The notes under the pieces: generated by a model | Database searches by the model: none | Seen by the model: only the letters and a program-made list of their open reading frames with translations | Told to the model about the DNA's origin: nothing | Assembly: GCA_001804565.1 (NCBI GenBank) | Contig: MHAC01000008.1 | Span: 3,446-67,445, forward strand | DNA from: Ignavibacteria bacterium GWF2_33_9 | Lineage (GTDB): Bacteria > Bacteroidota > Ignavibacteria > Kapaibacteriales > UBA2268 | Direction: 5' to 3' | DNA length: 64,000 bases | Made by a program: the position numbers and the translations under genes | Shown here: positions 22,864 to 40,917 of the stretch, one piece after another | How positions within the stretch are numbered: position 1 is the stretch's first letter | How the letters are laid out: each line of letters begins with the position of its first letter

Positions 22864-25800
22864 ATGAGTTTCTTCCAAAAATCAGTCGTTTCGAAGTATC
22901 TCAATAACCTGAACAAAGAGACAGTCAGTTCTGCTTTTTTGTTATTCAAAGAACATTTCCTTAATCCCGATATTCAGAAAAATATTCGTTCAATCAACGA
23001 AGAACAATATCAGCAGGGTTTCTTCAATGACCTTTTCGTAAAAGTTCTAGGCTATACTCTTAGTCCTAATTCAAACTTTAATTTACTGCCTGAATACAAA
23101 AACGAAAAGGACAGCAAGAAAGCTGATGGTGCTATTGTCATAAATAACAATGTGAGGGCTGTAATTGAGCTGAAAGATACGAAAACAACGGATTTGGGCA
23201 AGGTGGAAACTCAGGCATTCGGTTACAAGAATAATCAGAAGGACTGCCCCTACGTAATTATCTCGAACTTCGAGAAACTACGCTTCTATGTAGATAATTC
23301 AGTTGACTGCATCGAGTTCAATCTCTTTACTCTTTCTGAGGAAGATTTTACCATTCTTTATCTGATTCTTTCATACGAAAGTATCGAAAAGGACATTCCG
23401 AAGAAGCTGAAGAGCGAAACCGTCAATCAGGACGACATTACAACCAAGAAACTTTATAATGATTATTCCGTTTTCAAGAAAGAACTTTTCCAAAATCTTA
23501 TTGCAAAAAATCCAAATTTCGATAAACTTACTCTTTTCAAAAAATCGCAAAAGCTGATAGACCGACTTCTTTTCATTTTCTTTGCGGAAGACCGTGGCTT
23601 GCTTCCTCCCAATTCCGTCCGGCAAATAATTCAGGATTGGCAGAAGTTAGGTGAACTCGACAGCTATTCTCCGCTTTATTCTCGATTCCAAAAGTTTTTC
23701 GGTTATCTCAATACCGGCTACCAAAGCCCAACGCTAAAGATTTTTGCGTATAATGGCGGACTTTTCGAACCGGATGAAGTGTTGGACTCAATTTCTATTG
23801 ACGATGAGATTCTTAATGAGAATACACTCCGGTTGAGCCGTTATGACTTCGAAACAGAAGTGGACGTGAATATTCTTGGGCATATTTTCGAGCATTCGCT
23901 GAACGAAATCGAGGAAATCCAATCCGAACTTGAAGGTAAAGTTCCTGACAAATCTAAATCCAAACGCAAGAAGGACGGAATTTTCTATACTCCTAAGTAT
24001 ATTACGAAATATATCGTGGAAAATACTCTCGGTACTTTGTGCTCGGAAAAACGGATTGAATTTGGTTTGAATGATGACGAAACTGAAGAAACCAAGCGGA
24101 AAGCTGAAAAGAAGGATTTACTCGAGAGGATTGATTCTTACCGCAAATGGCTTTTGGAACTCACTATTTGCGACCCTGCTTGCGGTTCGGGTGCTTTTCT
24201 GAATCAGGCATTGGACTTTCTGCTGAACGAACATCGCCGACTTGATGAGCTTACAGCCCGAACACTTGATTTGCCGATTGTTTTCTCCGATATAGAAAAT
24301 TCGGTTCTTGAAAATAATATCTTCGGGGTGGACATCAACGAGGAAGCTGTGGAAATAGCCAAGCTCTCGCTTTGGTTACGCACTGCCCAAAGAGGCAGGA
24401 AGCTCAATACTCTAAGTAATAATATAAAATGCGGCAACTCGCTGATAGACGACCCCGCTGTTGCAGGCGATAAAGCGTTCAATTGGCAGGAAGAATTTCC
24501 AAGAGTATTCAAGAGTAATATTTCGGAATTTCATCTTGTAACCTTTGCTACAAAATATTCACGAATACCATTTGAAAATATTCCAAAAAACTATAATGAT
24601 GTATTTGTAAAATTAGATGAAGATGAAAGAATAATATTTGCTAAATGTTTAGCAGAAAAAGCTTCAAAATTAAATTTCAAAATTTTAGCAACTGCAATAC
24701 TACCAGACCATATTCATTTAGTATTAGCTACAATGGGTCATTCACTTTCTAAAATCATGAATGAAATAAAAGGATATTCAGCTTATAAAATAAACGAATA
24801 CAGAAGAAGTAAAAAAAGCAACTACACCATTTATGGTGTAGGAGAAAGAGCAGAAGTGGAAACTCCATCTGATAGCAACTACACCCTTCAGGGTGTAGGA
24901 AAGAACACAAAACAAGGGGTAGAAGATACATCAGAAAACCGTGATACAGCCCACATCGTAAACGATGTGGTTGCAGAACAGGATAGCAACTACACCATTT
25001 ATGGTGTAGGAGAAAAAGCAGAGGCTGATACTCCTTCTGATAGCAACTACACCCTTCAGGGTGTAGGAAAGAACACAAAACAAGGGGTAGAAGGTACATC
25101 AGAAAACCGTGATACAGCCCACATCCTAAAGGATGTGGTTGCAGAACAGGACGACAACTACACCATTTATGGTGTAGGAGAAAGAGCAGAGGCTGATACT
25201 CCTTCTGATAGCAACTACACCCTTCAGGGTGTAGGAGATGAGCCACATCGTGTAGGCAATAAGAAAGATACGACAGACAAAGGTACTCCCCACATCCTAA
25301 AGGATTCACCCCACATCCTAAAGGATGTGGTTGCAGAACATATTTGGGGACGCAGGTATAGCAATACTTTTCTTGATGATGATTCTCACTTATATAACGC
25401 TATAAACTATGTAAATAACAATTATGAAAAACACAAAGAGAAGTGGGGCAATCTAGAGAATGAAAAGATATCCCACATCCTAAAGGATGTGGTTGTAGAA
25501 ATAGATATACACGATAGCAACTACACCCTTCAGGGTGTAGGAAATACAACAGAACATACAGATAGTACTCTGTCCCACATCCTAAAGGATGTGGTTGCAG
25601 AACAGGACGACAACTACACCATTTATAGTGTAGAAGAAAAGAAAGATACAACTGATAGCAACTACACCCTTCAGGGTGTAGGAAAGAACACAAAACAAGT
25701 GGTAGAAGGTACATCAGAAAACCGTGATGAAGCCCACATCCTAAAGGATGTGGTTGCAGAACAGGACCGCAACTACACCATTTATGGTGTAGGAGAAAAG

Positions 25801-27489
25801 AAAGATACGACTGATAGCAACTACACCATTTATGGTGTAGGAGAAAAAGCAGAGACTGACACTCCTTCTGATAGCAACTACACCATTTATGGTGTGGGAG
25901 AAAAGAAAGATACGACTGATAGCAACTACACCCTTCAGGGTGTAGGAGAAAAAGCAGAGACTGACACTCCTTCTGATAGCAACTACACCCTTCAGGGTGT
26001 AGGCAATAAAAACCAATTCTCATACTTTTCCGGCGGCTTCGATGTCATTATCGGCAATCCTCCATACGGTGCTGAATTGGATAATAAAACTAAAGAGTAT
26101 TTTAAAACAATTTATAATGATGTTCATTATAGAACAATTGATACTTTTAACTATTTTATTTCTAAATCTCTAAAAATTCTTAATCATAATGGTTTTTTAT
26201 CTTTAATTGTTCCTAATAATCTTCTATACCAACATGAGTATTTTGTAACAAGAAAATTATTAGTTGAAGAAAATAAGTTGATTAGAGTTATTAATTTAGG
26301 AGATTCTGTATTTCAAGATGCAGATGTACCTACTTGTGTTTTTATTGTCAATAAAATTAAAGCTGAAAATTATAAATTTGAATATAAAGATATTCGAAAT
26401 GAAGTTATTAAGCAAGAAAAAATTAATGAAAATTTCGATTTAATCAGTTCGAATACTATTTTACAATTACCTTCAAATATTATTGGCATCTCTGATAAAA
26501 TTTTTAATTTGATTGAAAAAGTAAATTCTAAATCAGTTTTAATTGATGAAATTGCCGAAGAAGTCGCTTCAGGTATATCTTCTGGAGGAGATAAAATCTT
26601 CAGAATTTCAAAAGAATTTGCAGAATCAAATTTGTTTGAAAAGGAATTATTATATAAAGTTCTAGTTGGAAGTGAAATGAATAGATATGCATTAAATTCC
26701 TCAAATAATCTTATTATTTATTCAGTAAAATCATCAGAAACCGAAAAAAAATCGAATATTTACAATTATTTATTAAATTTCAAAGAACAATTATCTCGAA
26801 AGAGGGAAACTCTAAAAGGAACTTTACCATGGTATTGTTTGCATTGGCCACGTTATAAAGAATTGTTTACAGAAGAAAAAGTCATTTTAAGACAAACATC
26901 TGATGATATACGTGCTACCTATGATAATATGGGATATTTTACACTTGATAGTATATTAATTTTAAAATTGCTAAAAAATGATTATTCATATAAATTCATA
27001 ACATCATTATTAAATTCTAAAATTATAAGTTTCATATATAAGAATCTTACAATGGAAGAAGGAAGGACTTTTGCACAAGTCAAGCCTATTAATATCCGTA
27101 AACTCCCTATCCCAAATATCTCTCCCAATGCCCAGCTCCCTTTCATCGAAAAAGCAGATTTAATGCTGAAGTTGAATAAAGACCTGCAGGAAGGAAAAAA
27201 TGCTTTTATTACCTTCATAAAAGGTGAATATAATTTAGATAGAATCAATACCAAACTGGAAGAATGGTACAATTTGCCTTTCGACAGCTTCACAAAAGAA
27301 CTCGAAAAACTGAAAGTGAAACTAACTTCCACTCAGAAATACGACCTGAAGCCCCTTTTCGACCGAGAAGCCGCCAAACTTTTGGCAATAAAAACCGAAA
27401 TCGAAACCACCGACCGAGAAATAGACCAAATGGTATATAAACTCTACGACCTAACAGAAGAAGAAATCAAGATAGTGGAGGGGAAATAA
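22864..27489 (+). CDS. Type IIG restriction-modification enzyme (N-terminal PD-ExK nuclease plus gamma-class N6-adenine MTase plus TRD; MmeI/Eco57I-like) carrying a 1.5-kb in-frame insertion
   Basis: PD-ExK: ADGAIV...VIELKDTK (nt 23124-23175). MTase motif I is ICDPACGSGAFL (nt ~24172). FNWQEEFPRVF is followed only after about 500 aa by GGFDVIIGNPPYG (motif IV, nt 26032-26070); in family members these two segments are separated by about 10-20 aa. The C-terminus ...MVYKLYDLTEEEIKIVEGK is the hallmark tail of this family. Confidence 0.7.
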   Translation: MSFFQKSVVSKYLNNLNKETVSSAFLLFKEHFLNPDIQKNIRSINEEQYQQGFFNDLFVKVLGYTLSPNSNFNLLPEYKNEKDSKKADGAIVINNNVRAVIELKDTKTTDLGKVETQAFGYKNNQKDCPYVIISNFEKLRFYVDNSVDCIEFNLFTLSEEDFTILYLILSYESIEKDIPKKLKSETVNQDDITTKKLYNDYSVFKKELFQNLIAKNPNFDKLTLFKKSQKLIDRLLFIFFAEDRGLLPPNSVRQIIQDWQKLGELDSYSPLYSRFQKFFGYLNTGYQSPTLKIFAYNGGLFEPDEVLDSISIDDEILNENTLRLSRYDFETEVDVNILGHIFEHSLNEIEEIQSELEGKVPDKSKSKRKKDGIFYTPKYITKYIVENTLGTLCSEKRIEFGLNDDETEETKRKAEKKDLLERIDSYRKWLLELTICDPACGSGAFLNQALDFLLNEHRRLDELTARTLDLPIVFSDIENSVLENNIFGVDINEEAVEIAKLSLWLRTAQRGRKLNTLSNNIKCGNSLIDDPAVAGDKAFNWQEEFPRVFKSNISEFHLVTFATKYSRIPFENIPKNYNDVFVKLDEDERIIFAKCLAEKASKLNFKILATAILPDHIHLVLATMGHSLSKIMNEIKGYSAYKINEYRRSKKSNYTIYGVGERAEVETPSDSNYTLQGVGKNTKQGVEDTSENRDTAHIVNDVVAEQDSNYTIYGVGEKAEADTPSDSNYTLQGVGKNTKQGVEGTSENRDTAHILKDVVAEQDDNYTIYGVGERAEADTPSDSNYTLQGVGDEPHRVGNKKDTTDKGTPHILKDSPHILKDVVAEHIWGRRYSNTFLDDDSHLYNAINYVNNNYEKHKEKWGNLENEKISHILKDVVVEIDIHDSNYTLQGVGNTTEHTDSTLSHILKDVVAEQDDNYTIYSVEEKKDTTDSNYTLQGVGKNTKQVVEGTSENRDEAHILKDVVAEQDRNYTIYGVGEKKDTTDSNYTIYGVGEKAETDTPSDSNYTIYGVGEKKDTTDSNYTLQGVGEKAETDTPSDSNYTLQGVGNKNQFSYFSGGFDVIIGNPPYGAELDNKTKEYFKTIYNDVHYRTIDTFNYFISKSLKILNHNGFLSLIVPNNLLYQHEYFVTRKLLVEENKLIRVINLGDSVFQDADVPTCVFIVNKIKAENYKFEYKDIRNEVIKQEKINENFDLISSNTILQLPSNIIGISDKIFNLIEKVNSKSVLIDEIAEEVASGISSGGDKIFRISKEFAESNLFEKELLYKVLVGSEMNRYALNSSNNLIIYSVKSSETEKKSNIYNYLLNFKEQLSRKRETLKGTLPWYCLHWPRYKELFTEEKVILRQTSDDIRATYDNMGYFTLDSILILKLLKNDYSYKFITSLLNSKIISFIYKNLTMEEGRTFAQVKPINIRKLPIPNISPNAQLPFIEKADLMLKLNKDLQEGKNAFITFIKGEYNLDRINTKLEEWYNLPFDSFTKELEKLKVKLTSTQKYDLKPLFDREAAKLLAIKTEIETTDREIDQMVYKLYDLTEEEIKIVEGK
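24532..26031 (+). mobile_element. in-frame insertion: split RAYT/IS200-like Y1 HUH transposase domain plus REP-like hairpin array
   Basis: EFHLVTFATKYSRIPFE...ILATAILPDHIHLVLAT...IKGYSAYKIN matches the TnpA_IS200/RAYT N-terminal half (yHlvw.tKyRr; HUH motif HIHLV). HIWGRRYSNTFLDDDSHLYNAINYVNNNYEKH (nt 25340-25440) matches the TnpA C-terminal half (WqrSYydhvird...l...YI.nNP). The two halves are separated, and also followed, by palindromic repeat arrays. Confidence 0.6.
24822..26002. repeat. tandem array of three perfect-hairpin palindrome families with GTAG/CTAC ends (REP-like), 168-bp in-frame period
   Basis: H1 CTACACCA-TTTA-TGGTGTAG (e.g. 24822-24841, 24990, 25158, 25614...). H2 CTACACCC-TTCA-GGGTGTAG (24879-24898...). 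H3 CCACATCC-TAAA-GGATGTGG (25118-25138...). A variant CCACATCG-TAAA-CGATGTGG at 24951-24970 keeps the pairing through a compensatory change. H1 start-to-start distances are 168, 168 and 456 nt (24822, 24990, 25158, 25614) and 148, 60 and 55 nt thereafter, so the regular 168-bp period applies only to the first part of the array. Confidence 0.85.
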
Positions 27490-40844: not shown

Positions 40845-40917
40845 GCCACTTTAGCTCAGTTGGTAGAGCAGCTGATTTGTAATCAGCCGGTCGGCGGTTC
40901 AAGTCCGTCAAGTGGCT
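40845..40917 (+). tRNA. tRNA-Thr (anticodon UGU)
   Basis: Manual fold: acceptor GCCACTT/AAGTGGC, D-stem GCTC/GAGC, anticodon stem GCTGA/TCAGC with loop TTTGTAA (anticodon TGT), T-arm GGCGG-TTCAAGT-CCGTC. CCA is not encoded. Confidence 0.85.

What the first reader, a model, noticed from the sequence alone, without database searches (positions are those of the whole stretch)
24822..26002. 168-bp-period array of three perfect-hairpin families with GTAG ends and a compensatory stem mutation, fully inside an ORF
- **Seen in sequence:** There are at least seven copies each of CTACACCA-TTTA-TGGTGTAG and CTACACCC-TTCA-GGGTGTAG, and at least five of CCACATCC-TAAA-GGATGTGG. All are 8-bp perfect stems with 4-nt loops.
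- **Compensatory change:** The copy at 24951-24970 reads CCACATCG-TAAA-CGATGTGG, a C>G substitution matched by G>C. This argues that the DNA/RNA secondary structure, not only the encoded peptide, is under selection.
- **Periodicity:** Start-to-start distances between consecutive H1 copies are 168, 168 and 456 nt (all multiples of 3) in the first part of the array (24822-25614). Those units encode about 56-aa repeats (SNYTIYGVGEKAE.DTPSDSNYTLQGVGKNTKQGVEGTSENRDTAHILKDVVAEQD). The later H1 copies (25762, 25822, 25877) are 148, 60 and 55 nt apart, so the distal part is irregular and not a multiple of 3. The reading frame stays open only because the spacers vary in length.
- **Inference:** Unit gain or loss by slippage, recombination or RAYT action would keep the frame. 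This offers a length-variation mechanism for an RM enzyme.
- **Antisense artefact:** The antisense strand also yields long stop-free Cys/His-rich ORFs, which are an artefact of the palindromes.
Basis: seen in the sequence. Interest (0 to 1): 0.75.

Follow-up and report, generated by a model that had tools for sequence, protein, structure and literature searches.

The report
Mobile hairpin element inside restriction gene
The hairpin array is two clusters of REP-type DNA palindromes belonging to a RAYT-like transposase gene that sits in frame inside a restriction-modification enzyme gene; in-frame REPs are known, but I found no description of a transposase nested at one fixed site of many restriction genes.

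Summary
The hairpins are real: 20 copies of three perfect 8-bp-stem palindromes plus remnants, found only at 24822-26002 in the 64-kb window.

They lie in a 1541-aa Type IIG restriction-modification ORF (22864-27489). That ORF carries an in-frame IS200/RAYT-like HUH Y1 nuclease just before methyltransferase motif IV (NPPY).
- Block 1 fills the loop between the nuclease's HUH and Tyr motifs.
- Block 2 lies between the nuclease and the resumed methyltransferase.

Relatives carry single hairpins at the same codon positions with fully covarying stems. A predicted compensatory synonymous change was confirmed. Selection therefore acts on the DNA/RNA hairpin, not the peptide, which AlphaFold2 models as disordered.

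The same nuclease insert occupies the same site in about 25 of 111 close homologues. It also occurs in a different Type IIG architecture. It is scattered on gene trees and mostly in frame.

In-frame REPs inside RAYT genes are published (Quentin 2018). I found no description of a RAYT nested in restriction genes. Verdict: new variant of a known kind. Nuclease activity, array length variation and genome-wide hairpin dispersal are untested.

The parts
22864..24519 (+). N-terminal part of the Type IIG restriction-modification ORF: nuclease and helical domains, then methyltransferase motifs up to '...AFNWQEEFPRVFKSN'
   Evidence: Pfam finds MmeI_N, MmeI_hel, MmeI_Mtase and Eco57I. PADLOC REase_MTase_IIG PDLC03609 scores E 2.3e-262 over aa 1-551. 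It is 63-67% identical to many Bacteroidota homologues.
24520..24816 (+). RAYT-like HUH Y1 nuclease, N-terminal half (ISEFHLVTF...LPDHIHLVL...KGYSAYKINEYRRSKK). The HUH motif D-H-I-H is at 24703-24714.
   Evidence: Pfam Y1_Tnp covers aa 575-652 at 44.4 bits against a cutoff of 23. NCBIfam REP_Tyr_transpos scores 61 bits when the two halves are stitched. AlphaFold2 pLDDT is 78-96. Foldseek matches ISDra2 TnpA.
24817..25338 (+). REP block 1: nine hairpins (H1-H2-H3 three times) plus one truncated and one chimeric remnant. It fills the loop between the HUH and Tyr motifs of the nuclease.
   Evidence: AlphaFold2 pLDDT is below 40 with no secondary structure.
25339..25464 (+). RAYT-like nuclease, C-terminal half (HIWGRRYSNTFLDDDSHLYNAINYVNNNYEKHKEKWG). 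The putative catalytic Tyr codon is at 25408-25410.
   Evidence: W106, Y127, N131, K134 and H135 are invariant in alignment A1. AlphaFold2 pLDDT is 65-94. The sequence matches subfamily-A relatives ('NAIEYVNNNYxKH').
25465..26004 (+). REP block 2: eleven hairpins in the order H3, H2, H3, H1*, H2, H3, H1, H1, H1*, H2, H2 (* = one mismatch). It lies between the end of the nuclease and the resumption of the methyltransferase.
   Evidence: AlphaFold2 pLDDT is below 40.
26005..26031 (+). Short tail of the insert (NKNQFSYFS) directly before GGFDV. It corresponds to the conserved tail 'W(E/K)D(F/Y)EYxx' of related inserts.
   Evidence: Comparison with P0121, P0122, P0124, P0125 and P0127.
26032..27489 (+). 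C-terminal part of the restriction-modification ORF: GGFDVIIG-NPPY (motif IV, NPPY at 26056-26067), the rest of the methyltransferase, and the TaqI_C specificity domain, up to the stop codon.
   Evidence: Pfam finds Eco57I, N6_Mtase and TaqI_C. PADLOC Type IIG models cover aa 1056-1441. Foldseek matches CamA, M.TaqI and BrxX.
24822..24841 (+). H1 hairpin CTACACCA-TTTA-TGGTGTAG (encodes NYTIYGVG)
24879..24898 (+). H2 hairpin CTACACCC-TTCA-GGGTGTAG (encodes NYTLQGVG)
24951..24970 (+). H3 variant CCACATCG-TAAA-CGATGTGG, with the closing pair changed C-G to G-C (encodes HIVNDVV)
24990..25009 (+). H1 hairpin
25047..25066 (+). H2 hairpin
25119..25138 (+). H3 hairpin CCACATCC-TAAA-GGATGTGG (encodes HILKDVV)
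25158..25177 (+). H1 hairpin
25215..25234 (+). H2 hairpin
25243..25256 (+). Chimeric remnant: 5' arm of H3 (CCACATC) joined directly to the 3' arm of H1/H2 (GTGTAGG)
   Evidence: Read from the sequence.
25290..25305 (+). Truncated H3 (CCACATCCTAAAGGAT)
   Evidence: family D6
25311..25330 (+). H3 hairpin
25473..25492 (+). H3 hairpin
25521..25540 (+). H2 hairpin
25575..25594 (+). H3 hairpin
25614..25633 (+). H1 hairpin with one mismatch (...TATAGTGTAG)
25662..25681 (+). H2 hairpin
25734..25753 (+). H3 hairpin
25773..25792 (+). H1 hairpin
25821..25840 (+). H1 hairpin
25878..25897 (+). H1 hairpin with one mismatch (...GGTGTGG)
25926..25945 (+). H2 hairpin
25983..26002 (+). H2 hairpin

Best explanation
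The array is two clusters of REP-type palindromes. Each has an 8-bp stem bounded by C[TC]AC...GT[AG]G.

**Where they sit**
- They belong to a RAYT/TnpA_REP-like HUH Y1 nuclease gene.
- That nuclease gene has no start or stop codon of its own. It is nested in frame in a Type IIG restriction-modification gene, in the loop just before methyltransferase motif IV.
- One cluster fills the nuclease's HUH-to-Tyr loop. The other follows the nuclease.

**How the clusters arose (inferred)**
- Relatives carry a single hairpin at each of these two places.
- In the window these grew into 9 and 11 copies by local tandem duplication of units of 168, 105, 57 and 48 nt.
- Only copies in one stop-free codon phase survive. 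The nuclease's catalytic Tyr and the methyltransferase motifs IV-VIII plus the specificity domain lie downstream and must still be translated.
- The encoded peptides are tolerated as disordered surface loops.

**What the hairpin does (inferred)**
- The hairpin is what is conserved. By analogy with characterised TnpA_REP/REP pairs, it is the single-stranded-DNA site that the embedded nuclease binds and cuts.

**Shown versus inferred**
- Shown: the anatomy, the common codon phase, the covariation, the recurrence of the nested nuclease at the same site, and the predicted disorder.
- Inferred: binding and cleavage by the nuclease, the duplication mechanism, and translation of the full 1541-aa product.
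For: **Anatomy**
- Pfam and PADLOC show a Type IIG enzyme with Y1_Tnp at aa 575-652.
- The HUH motif and the 'YVNNNYEKH' Tyr motif lie on either side of block 1.
- The stitched nuclease scores higher on NCBIfam REP_Tyr_transpos (61 bits) than on IS200 (42.6 bits).
- PDB profile hits are IS200-family TnpA proteins and TnpA_REP 4er8.
- AlphaFold2 gives confident models for both nuclease halves and pLDDT below 40 for both hairpin blocks. Foldseek matches ISDra2 TnpA.

**Frame constraint**
- All 20 hairpins share one codon phase.
- Frames +1 and +2 carry 13-18 stops per block.
- The chance of 504 codons staying open is about 3e-13.

**Hairpin-level selection**
- Relatives carry palindromes at the same codon position: AACCGTACC-CTGAAG-GGTACGGTT (NRTLKGTV) in L084, and CCCCACG-CTTCAG-CGTGGGG three times in L083.
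- 97% of cells are paired and 6 of 8 pairs change on both sides. Slid controls give 33-42%.
- I predicted that the Thr-to-Ala change in P0121 would be matched by an Arg CGT-to-CGC change. It was.
- L084 has a second copy 3' of the Tyr motif in another codon phase. Its loop is changed to avoid a TGA stop.

**Family context**
- The same nuclease insert is found at the same site in 25 of 111 classifiable close homologues. At least 13 read through into GGFD..NPPY.
- It also occurs in HSDR_N-type Type IIG enzymes.
- The catalytic residues are invariant.

**Published precedent**
- Perfect-palindrome REPs recognised by co-evolved TnpA_REP proteins (PMC8266576).
Against: - No hairpin copy lies outside the gene in 64 kb. 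In homologue loci the palindromes are also confined to the restriction gene. The defining dispersed, extragenic property of REPs is therefore not shown.
- The nuclease falls below NCBIfam's curated RAYT cutoff (61 bits against 80).
- Its W motif is 'WG', not 'WQ'.
- The GTAG tag is at the 3' end and inside the stem, not a 5' unpaired foot.
- There is no direct evidence that the 1541-aa protein is made or that the embedded nuclease is active.
- Several hairpins used for the covariation count were found with a palindrome finder. That count is partly circular. The P0121 prediction is not.
Confidence: 0.72

Rival explanations
1. The embedded HUH nuclease is not a passenger. It is a domesticated working part of the restriction enzyme, or it promotes exchange of the variable C-terminal specificity module. 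The hairpins would then be its cis-acting sites at the boundary between the constant and variable parts of the gene.
For: - The catalytic residues are invariant across inserts that are only 25-55% identical.
- The insert is kept in frame in many lineages and in two enzyme architectures.
- The insertion site coincides with the point where homologues change from 65-90% to 30-45% identity.
- GC3 drops sharply at the same point.
Against: - 71 of 111 close homologues lack any insert and show the same constant/variable boundary.
- Insert presence is scattered on both the N-part and C-part trees.
- In some lineages the frame breaks inside the repeats, for example P0072/L078 and P0108.
- There is no functional data.
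Confidence: 0.15
2. The array is a programmed length- or phase-variation module (a contingency locus) that switches or tunes the restriction enzyme through gain and loss of repeat units.
For: - The array contains tandem units at 93-94% identity.
- A related lineage has its frame broken within the repeat region.
Against: - All unit lengths are multiples of 3, so slippage cannot switch the frame.
- The three assemblies that carry the gene are identical.
- The repeat peptides are predicted to be disordered loops far from the catalytic motifs.
Confidence: 0.07
3. The repeats are purely a protein-level linker or structural repeat, and the DNA palindromes are incidental.
For: - The ORF is open through the array.
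- The peptide units are regular at 56 aa.
Against: - No Pfam family matches the repeat region.
- AlphaFold2 models it as disordered.
- Homologues carry unrelated peptides (EHAPLP, KGLQPLV, NPTLQRGD, NRTLKGTV), and each is encoded by a perfect palindrome.
- Covariation includes a synonymous compensatory change.
Confidence: 0.03
4. The region is an assembly artefact, or the gene is a decaying pseudogene interrupted by a transposon.
For: - Many homologues are truncated near the insert, and assemblies tend to break at repeats.
- Some loci are split into two ORFs.
Against: - An identical sequence appears in three assemblies held by different sources.
- 1541 codons are open in a 34% GC genome.
- All catalytic motifs of both enzymes are intact.
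- Full-length relatives of 1108-1325 aa exist.
Confidence: 0.03

Closest known systems
TnpA_REP subclass 2.4 REPtrons (Quentin, Siguier, Chandler & Fichant 2018, PMC6006769; Bertels RAYT group 4)
   Same: [quoted passage not shown]
- The tags are of the GT[AG]G / C[TC]AC 'double foot' type.
- The variable region is modelled as a peripheral loop.
- The subclass occurs in Bacteroidetes.
- The Y motif YIxNNP resembles the window's YVNNNY.
   Different: - The window's nuclease is not a free-standing gene. It has no start or stop codon and is nested in frame in a restriction-modification gene.
- Its HUH motif is DHIH, not NH[IFV]H. Its W motif is WG, not WQ.
- The tag order is 5'-CTAC...GTAG-3' and lies within the stem.
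- The hairpins are not seen dispersed.
[quoted passage not shown]
Intragenic GTAG-REPs and Rickettsia palindromic elements (Di Nocera et al. 2013, PMC3733652, and the work it cites)
   Same: - Short palindromic repeats are inserted in frame in ORFs that probably stay functional.
- They sometimes form clusters encoding tens of residues.
- They are presumed to sit in permissive loops.
   Different: - Those elements are members of genome-wide dispersed families that land in unrelated genes.
- Here about 350 residues of repeats are confined to one gene, next to their own nuclease.
IS200/IS605 TnpA and E. coli TnpA_REP (PDB 2ec2, 2xm3, 2a6m, 4er8)
   Same: - The HUH Y1 fold and motifs are shared.
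- Recognition of single-stranded DNA hairpins is the established activity.
- Sequence-profile and fold matches were found here.
   Different: - Identity is low (about 16% in the fold alignment).
- The nuclease is embedded in a host protein.
- The hairpins lie inside coding sequence, not at element ends.
MmeI / Eco57I-type Type IIG (IIL) restriction-modification enzymes
   Same: - The host ORF has the full domain order, with motif I (DPACGSGAFL) and motif IV (NPPY).
   Different: - A 504-codon insert lies before motif IV.
- Uninterrupted relatives are about 947 aa.
Inteins and homing elements in conserved enzyme motifs
   Same: - The insert is in frame at one fixed conserved site of a host enzyme.
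- It is present or absent among very close alleles.
- The empty site is exact.
   Different: - No Hint or intein domain is found, and there are no splicing residues at the junctions.
- The insert most likely stays in the mature protein.

Membership tests
REP / REPtron | Short palindromic hairpin carrying a conserved GT[AG]G tetranucleotide tag | tested here: met
   The stems are CTACACC./.GGTGTAG and CCACATCC/GGATGTGG. Caveat: the tag is paired and at the 3' end, with its complement at the 5' end.
REP / REPtron | Hairpins physically flank, or lie in, a RAYT/TnpA_REP gene | tested here: met
   Block 1 lies between the HUH and Tyr motifs. Block 2 lies directly 3' of the nuclease.
REP / REPtron | Many copies dispersed around the genome, mostly extragenic | tested here: not met
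   There are 0 copies outside 24822-26002 in 64 kb. Homologue loci also show palindromes only inside the restriction gene. The whole genome was not available, and the public scans did not return this organism.
REP / REPtron | Cognate nuclease binds and cleaves the folded single-stranded hairpin | not testable with these tools
   This needs biochemistry. It is established only for other TnpA_REP/REP pairs (PMC8266576).
RAYT / TnpA_REP (HUH Y1 nuclease) | HUH motif and a single catalytic Tyr in a Y1_Tnp domain | tested here: met
   DHIH and YVNNNYEKH are present. Pfam Y1_Tnp scores 44.4 bits against a cutoff of 23. The residues are invariant in A1.
RAYT / TnpA_REP (HUH Y1 nuclease) | Score at or above NCBIfam NF047646's curated cutoff | tested here: not met
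   61.1 bits against a cutoff of 80 for the stitched domain. This is still higher than the IS200 model at 42.6 bits against 55.
RAYT / TnpA_REP (HUH Y1 nuclease) | IS200-type TnpA fold | tested here: met
   AlphaFold2 models both halves with confidence. Foldseek matches ISDra2 TnpA with target TM-score 0.54-0.59 and E about 7e-5.
RAYT / TnpA_REP (HUH Y1 nuclease) | Free-standing gene of about 150-330 aa | tested here: not met
   There is no start or stop codon. The domain is nested at aa 553-1056 of a 1541-aa ORF.
TnpA_REP subclass 2.4 (Quentin 2018) | [quoted passage not shown] | tested here: met
   Block 1, 24817-25338.
TnpA_REP subclass 2.4 (Quentin 2018) | Motifs NH[IFV]H / WQ / YIxNNP | tested here: inconclusive
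   The window has DHIH / WG / YVNNNY. Relatives have DH[IVM]H / W[TSA]Q or WAK / Y[IV]xxN[RY]xKH. The subclass HMMs were not available.
Type IIG restriction-modification enzyme | Single polypeptide with an N-terminal nuclease, a gamma-class N6-adenine methyltransferase (motifs I and IV) and a C-terminal specificity domain | tested here: met
   Pfam and PADLOC results. DPACGSGAFL and NPPY are in the translation.
Type IIG restriction-modification enzyme | Restriction and methylation activity | not testable with these tools
   Needs expression and methylome data.
Intein | Hint domain and splice-junction residues (Cys/Ser at the start, His-Asn plus Cys/Ser/Thr at the end) | tested here: not met
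   No Hint or intein Pfam hit. The junctions read KSN|ISEF and YFS|GGFD.
Simple-sequence contingency locus | Repeat unit not divisible by 3, so slippage switches the frame | tested here: not met
   Periods of 168, 105, 57 and 48 nt, and all copies in one phase.

The most novel reading that the evidence does not exclude
A lineage of RAYT-type HUH nucleases lives, mainly or only, as in-frame 'guest domains' at one fixed loop of Type IIG restriction-modification enzymes, just before methyltransferase motif IV.
- The guests are translated as part of the host protein.
- They carry their own REP hairpins inside the coding sequence.
- They move between, or are precisely lost from, restriction-gene alleles in a homing-like way.
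- They may exploit or promote recombination at the boundary between the conserved N-terminal module and the variable specificity module.
Probability: 0.3. Interest if true: 0.85.

Novelty: new variant of a known kind. Interest (0 to 1): 0.64.

Why it matters
- **A tractable test of RAYT function.** RAYTs and REPs are widespread, but their function and mode of spread remain unsettled. Here the nuclease, its hairpins and a host enzyme with an easily measured activity (methylation and restriction) are on one polypeptide and in one locus. Insert-free alleles up to 90% identical in DNA upstream of the insertion site serve as natural controls.
- **Structure maintained inside coding DNA.** A DNA/RNA hairpin has been kept within a coding region across deep divergence, through both synonymous and non-synonymous compensatory changes.
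- **A possible new lifestyle for a prokaryotic mobile element.** If the homing-like behaviour is real, this would be a permanent in-frame guest of a defence gene. It would also point to a possible driver of modular exchange in Type IIG enzymes.
- **An annotation problem.** These ORFs are variously labelled 'transposase', 'methylase, partial' or both.

Tried and rejected
- **Protein searches.** Searches with the insert peptide and with the nuclease N-half returned nothing, not even the window's own protein. They give no information on whether the hairpin peptides occur in other proteins.
- **Collection scans.** Genome and metagenome scans for the H1/H2 pattern did not return the window's organism.
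- **RNA families.** Rfam found nothing but tRNAs in the window and in 15 loci carrying the hairpin.
- **Expression signals.** Promoter-like and terminator-like sites were at shuffle level, so there is no evidence for separate expression of the nuclease.
- **Plasmids.** tblastn of a clean insert against plasmids found no match.
- **Contingency-locus idea.** Rejected because all units are multiples of 3.
- **Intein idea.** Rejected because there is no Hint domain and no splice residues.
- **Nuclease inherited with the C-terminal half.** GC3 suggested this. The C-part tree also scatters insert-bearing genes, and insert-free L082 shows the same GC3 drop.
- **Simple vertical co-inheritance of nuclease and methyltransferase.** This is contradicted.
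  - The window's nuclease is 55% identical to that of P0121, whose methyltransferase N-part is only 36% identical.
  - Genes with N-parts 63-67% identical carry nucleases only 29-35% identical.
- **Literature.** Searches for a RAYT or Y1 transposase nested in a methyltransferase or Type IIG enzyme found nothing. The library is incomplete.
Full report
**1. Observation**

The three hairpin families are present as described.
- H1 (CTACACCA-TTTA-TGGTGTAG) has 5 perfect copies and 2 one-mismatch copies.
- H2 (CTACACCC-TTCA-GGGTGTAG) has 7 perfect copies.
- H3 (CCACATCC-TAAA-GGATGTGG) has 5 perfect copies. There is also the compensated variant at 24951, a truncated copy at 25290-25305 and a chimeric remnant at 25243-25256.
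- None occurs elsewhere in the 64-kb window, even with a relaxed pattern. Shuffles give about 0.
- Tandem Repeats Finder reports a 168-nt unit (2.5 copies, 94% identity) and 105-, 57- and 48-nt units distally.
- As single-stranded DNA each hairpin folds at -7.1 to -7.9 kcal/mol.

The distal H1 copies are at 25773, 25821 and 25878, with spacings of 159, 48 and 57 nt. All 20 hairpins start at the same codon position. Only the reading frame is stop-free on the + strand, and the other two + frames carry 13-18 stops per block.

**2. What the ORF is**

ORF 22864-27489 (1541 aa) is a Type IIG restriction-modification enzyme.
- Pfam finds MmeI_N, MmeI_hel, MmeI_Mtase, Eco57I, N6_Mtase and TaqI_C.
- PADLOC REase_MTase_IIG scores E 2.3e-262.
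- Motif I (DPACGSGAFL) and motif IV (NPPY) are intact.

Between '...FPRVFKSN' and 'GGFDVIIGNPPY' it carries a 504-codon insert with no start or stop codon of its own. The insert is an IS200/RAYT-type HUH Y1 nuclease.
- Pfam Y1_Tnp scores 44 bits.
- With its two halves stitched together it scores 61 bits on NCBIfam REP_Tyr_transpos (cutoff 80) and 43 bits on IS200.
- PDB profile hits are IS200-family TnpA proteins and TnpA_REP 4er8.

Hairpin block 1 (24817-25338) splits the nuclease between the HUH motif (DHIH) and the W/Tyr motifs (HIWGRRY...NYVNNNYEKH). Block 2 (25465-26004) lies between the nuclease and the resumed methyltransferase.

AlphaFold2, run on aa 400-1260 with a 50-sequence alignment, gives these results:
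- pLDDT 78-96 for the nuclease N-half.
- pLDDT 65-94 for the nuclease C-half.
- pLDDT below 40 and no secondary structure for both hairpin-encoded blocks.

Foldseek matches the nuclease part to ISDra2 TnpA and the rest to CamA, M.TaqI and BrxX.

**3. The hairpin, not the peptide, is conserved**

H1, H2 and H3 differ from one another only by mirrored stem changes. The closest relatives of the window's nuclease come from an exhaustive HMMER search (sequences). They share a loop peptide 'NRTLKGTV' at the position of block 1.

At the DNA level that peptide is a palindrome in the same codon phase as the window's hairpins:

| Source | Codons | Peptide |
|---|---|---|
| L084 (P0122) | AAC CGT ACC CTG AAG GGT ACG GTT | NRTLKGTV |
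| Window H2 | AAC TAC ACC CTT CAG GGT GTA GGA | NYTLQGVG |
| Window H3 | CCC CAC ATC CTA AAG GAT GTG GTT | (P)HILKDVV |
| L083 (P0159), three copies | AAC CCC ACG CTT CAG CGT GGG GAT | NPTLQRGD |

Before seeing the DNA I predicted that P0121's Thr-to-Ala change (NRTLKGAV) would be matched by a synonymous Arg CGT-to-CGC change. L085 reads AAC CGC ACC CTT AAG GGT GCG GTT.

Over nine hairpin types:
- 97% of cells pair.
- 6 of 8 stem pairs show changes on both sides.
- Slid controls give 33-42%.
- Some of these sequences were found with a palindrome finder, so the count is partly circular. The P0121 prediction is not.

L084 has a second copy 3' of the Tyr motif. It is a 50-nt perfect palindrome in another codon phase, and its loop is CTTAAG, where CTGAAG would create a TGA stop. 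The ancestral layout therefore appears to be one hairpin in the HUH-to-Tyr loop and one after the nuclease. The window is an expanded version of that layout.

The other nuclease subfamily carries unrelated peptides (EHAPLP, KGLQPLV) that are again palindromes, ACAAGGGAGCATGCTCCCTTGT and CAAGGGGCTGCAGCCCCTTG-like. In L077 there are five such palindromes inside the restriction gene and none in about 19 kb of flanks.

**4. The nested nuclease is a family trait**

- Among the 120 best homologues of the N-terminal part (about 65% identical, Bacteroidota), 111 could be classified:
  - 71 are uninterrupted ('...FPxxFxKGGFDV...', about 947 aa).
  - 25 carry the nuclease at exactly this site.
  - 15 carry other inserts there, for example a helical segment of about 74 aa.
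- At least 13 of the 25 read through in frame into GGFD..NPPY.
- HUH, W, Y, N, K and H residues are invariant in the insert alignment.
- Insert-bearing genes are scattered on trees of both the N-terminal and the C-terminal parts, with close insert-bearing/empty sister pairs.
- In one pair (P0057 and P0076), 1658 nt upstream are 90% identical. The insert is exactly 612 nt, with only a 2-nt microhomology and no target duplication.
- The window's nuclease is 48-55% identical to those in P0121, P0125 and P0128. Their host enzymes have a different N-terminal domain (HSDR_N) and are only 32-36% identical in the N-part. Hosts 63-67% identical carry nucleases only 29-35% identical.
- The nuclease history is therefore not the host gene's history. 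Either inserts move between alleles, or alleles recombine around them.
- The genomic neighbourhoods of the genes differ.

**5. How it most likely works**

Shown:
- A HUH Y1 nuclease with intact catalytic motifs is translated, if at all, only as part of the restriction enzyme.
- Its hairpins lie in two permissive, probably disordered segments.
- Hairpin structure is under selection.
- The copies are constrained to one stop-free codon phase.

Inferred:
- The hairpins are the single-stranded-DNA sites that the nuclease binds and cuts, as for characterised TnpA_REP/REP pairs, including perfect-palindrome REPs (PMC8266576).
- The arrays grew by local tandem duplication, through slippage, unequal exchange or nuclease action.
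- Selection for downstream translation filtered the copies. Downstream elements are the nuclease Tyr motif after block 1 and methyltransferase motifs IV-VIII plus the specificity domain after block 2.
- Gain or loss of units keeps the frame, so the array cannot act as an on/off switch.

**6. Comparison with what is known**

- In-frame intragenic REPs and Rickettsia palindromic elements are also known (PMC3733652).
- The array itself is therefore an extreme example of a known phenomenon.
- I did not find any description of the nuclease being nested in frame at a fixed site of Type IIG genes. Quentin et al. explicitly discarded long 'fusion' proteins. Automated annotation labels such ORFs with both functions.
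- The literature library is incomplete, so the novelty claim is limited to what it holds.

**7. Limits**

- The rest of this organism's genome was not available.
- L001 and L002 are identical to the window, so length variation is untested.
- Two protein searches failed.
- The trees are neighbour-joining trees on partial proteins.
- There is no biochemical or expression evidence.

Noticed in passing
L008, L017-L019, L022, L024 (Nanoarchaeota MAG H51-bin135_1) and L036, L037, L040, L053, L060: The exact H1 20-mer sits in a dispersed conserved element of about 65 nt: TTAATCCTAAAAA.AAAT-CTACACCATTTATGGTGTAG-TA..TTATGTA.ATTT.TTTTGGGAA. A CTCAAAACC motif follows about 45 nt downstream. The flanks can pair around the hairpin. 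No Rfam family matches.
   Followed up: partly
L003, L004, L006, L014, L020 (Anaerolineae MAG) and several metagenome contigs; L013 500-856; L039 188-1124: CTACACCATTCATGGTGTAG recurs in conserved contexts in Chloroflexi. In L013 it lies directly after the stop codon of a Y1 transposase ORF. In L039 a Y1 transposase ORF is flanked on both sides by palindrome arrays, one of them a 24-nt-period array of this hairpin. This hairpin class is therefore linked to Y1 nucleases across phyla.
   Followed up: partly
L083 13736-14401: A free-standing RAYT ORF of 221 aa (NHIH, WQ, YIILNP) lies immediately downstream of the restriction gene that already contains a nested nuclease. It has in-frame repeats in its own HUH-to-Tyr loop.
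   Followed up: partly
window 22864-27489; also L081, L082, L083, L085: There is a sharp GC3 mosaic.
- N-terminal part: 0.38-0.52.
- Nuclease N-half: 0.10.
- Methyltransferase C-part codons 1057-1300: 0.08-0.15.
- Last ~120 codons: 0.35-0.43.
- Neighbouring genes: about 0.27-0.33.
The drop at the insertion site also occurs in the insert-free homologue L082. It coincides with the switch from conserved to variable sequence in this enzyme family.
   Followed up: partly
Homologues P0007, P0016, P0026, P0040, P0052, P0081, P0086 (same site as window 24519/26032): A different insert of about 72-77 aa, probably helical ('...PDYLKLIKEKSLEAQ...KKVYEYAEKL...'), occupies the same loop before GGFDV. P0058 and P0067 have a 10-aa insert there. 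The loop is a general hot spot for insertions.
   Followed up: no
L078 10001-13947 (P0072) and P0108: In this lineage the reading frame breaks inside the hairpin region. The gene is called as two overlapping ORFs: N-part plus nuclease, and C-part with Eco57I and TaqI_C.
   Followed up: no
Insert tails: window 26005-26031; P0121, P0122, P0124, P0127; subfamily B 'YEHAFRTEYK': The conserved tail just before GGFD ('W(E/K)D(F/Y)EY..', 'QFSYFS', 'AFRTEYK') resembles the host segment just before the insert ('F.W..EFP..F.K'). This may be a degenerate duplicate of the host segment. It rests on pattern resemblance only.
   Followed up: no
L077 10281, 11087, 11247, 13403; P0064 and P0066 N-terminal parts: In the other nuclease subfamily, palindromes encoding 'EHAPL' also sit in frame at several places in the restriction gene outside the nuclease insert. 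None was found in the flanking ~19 kb.
   Followed up: partly
window 25243-25256: A loop-less chimera joins an H3 5' arm to an H1/H2 3' arm (CCACATC|GTGTAGG). It suggests deletion or recombination between neighbouring hairpins.
   Followed up: no
window 40845-40917 and flanking genes: There is one tRNA gene. Neighbouring genes include mraZ/rsmH directly upstream on the minus strand and several T9SS (Por_Secre_tail) proteins. These point to a Bacteroidota chromosome with no other restriction-modification partner genes nearby.
   Followed up: no
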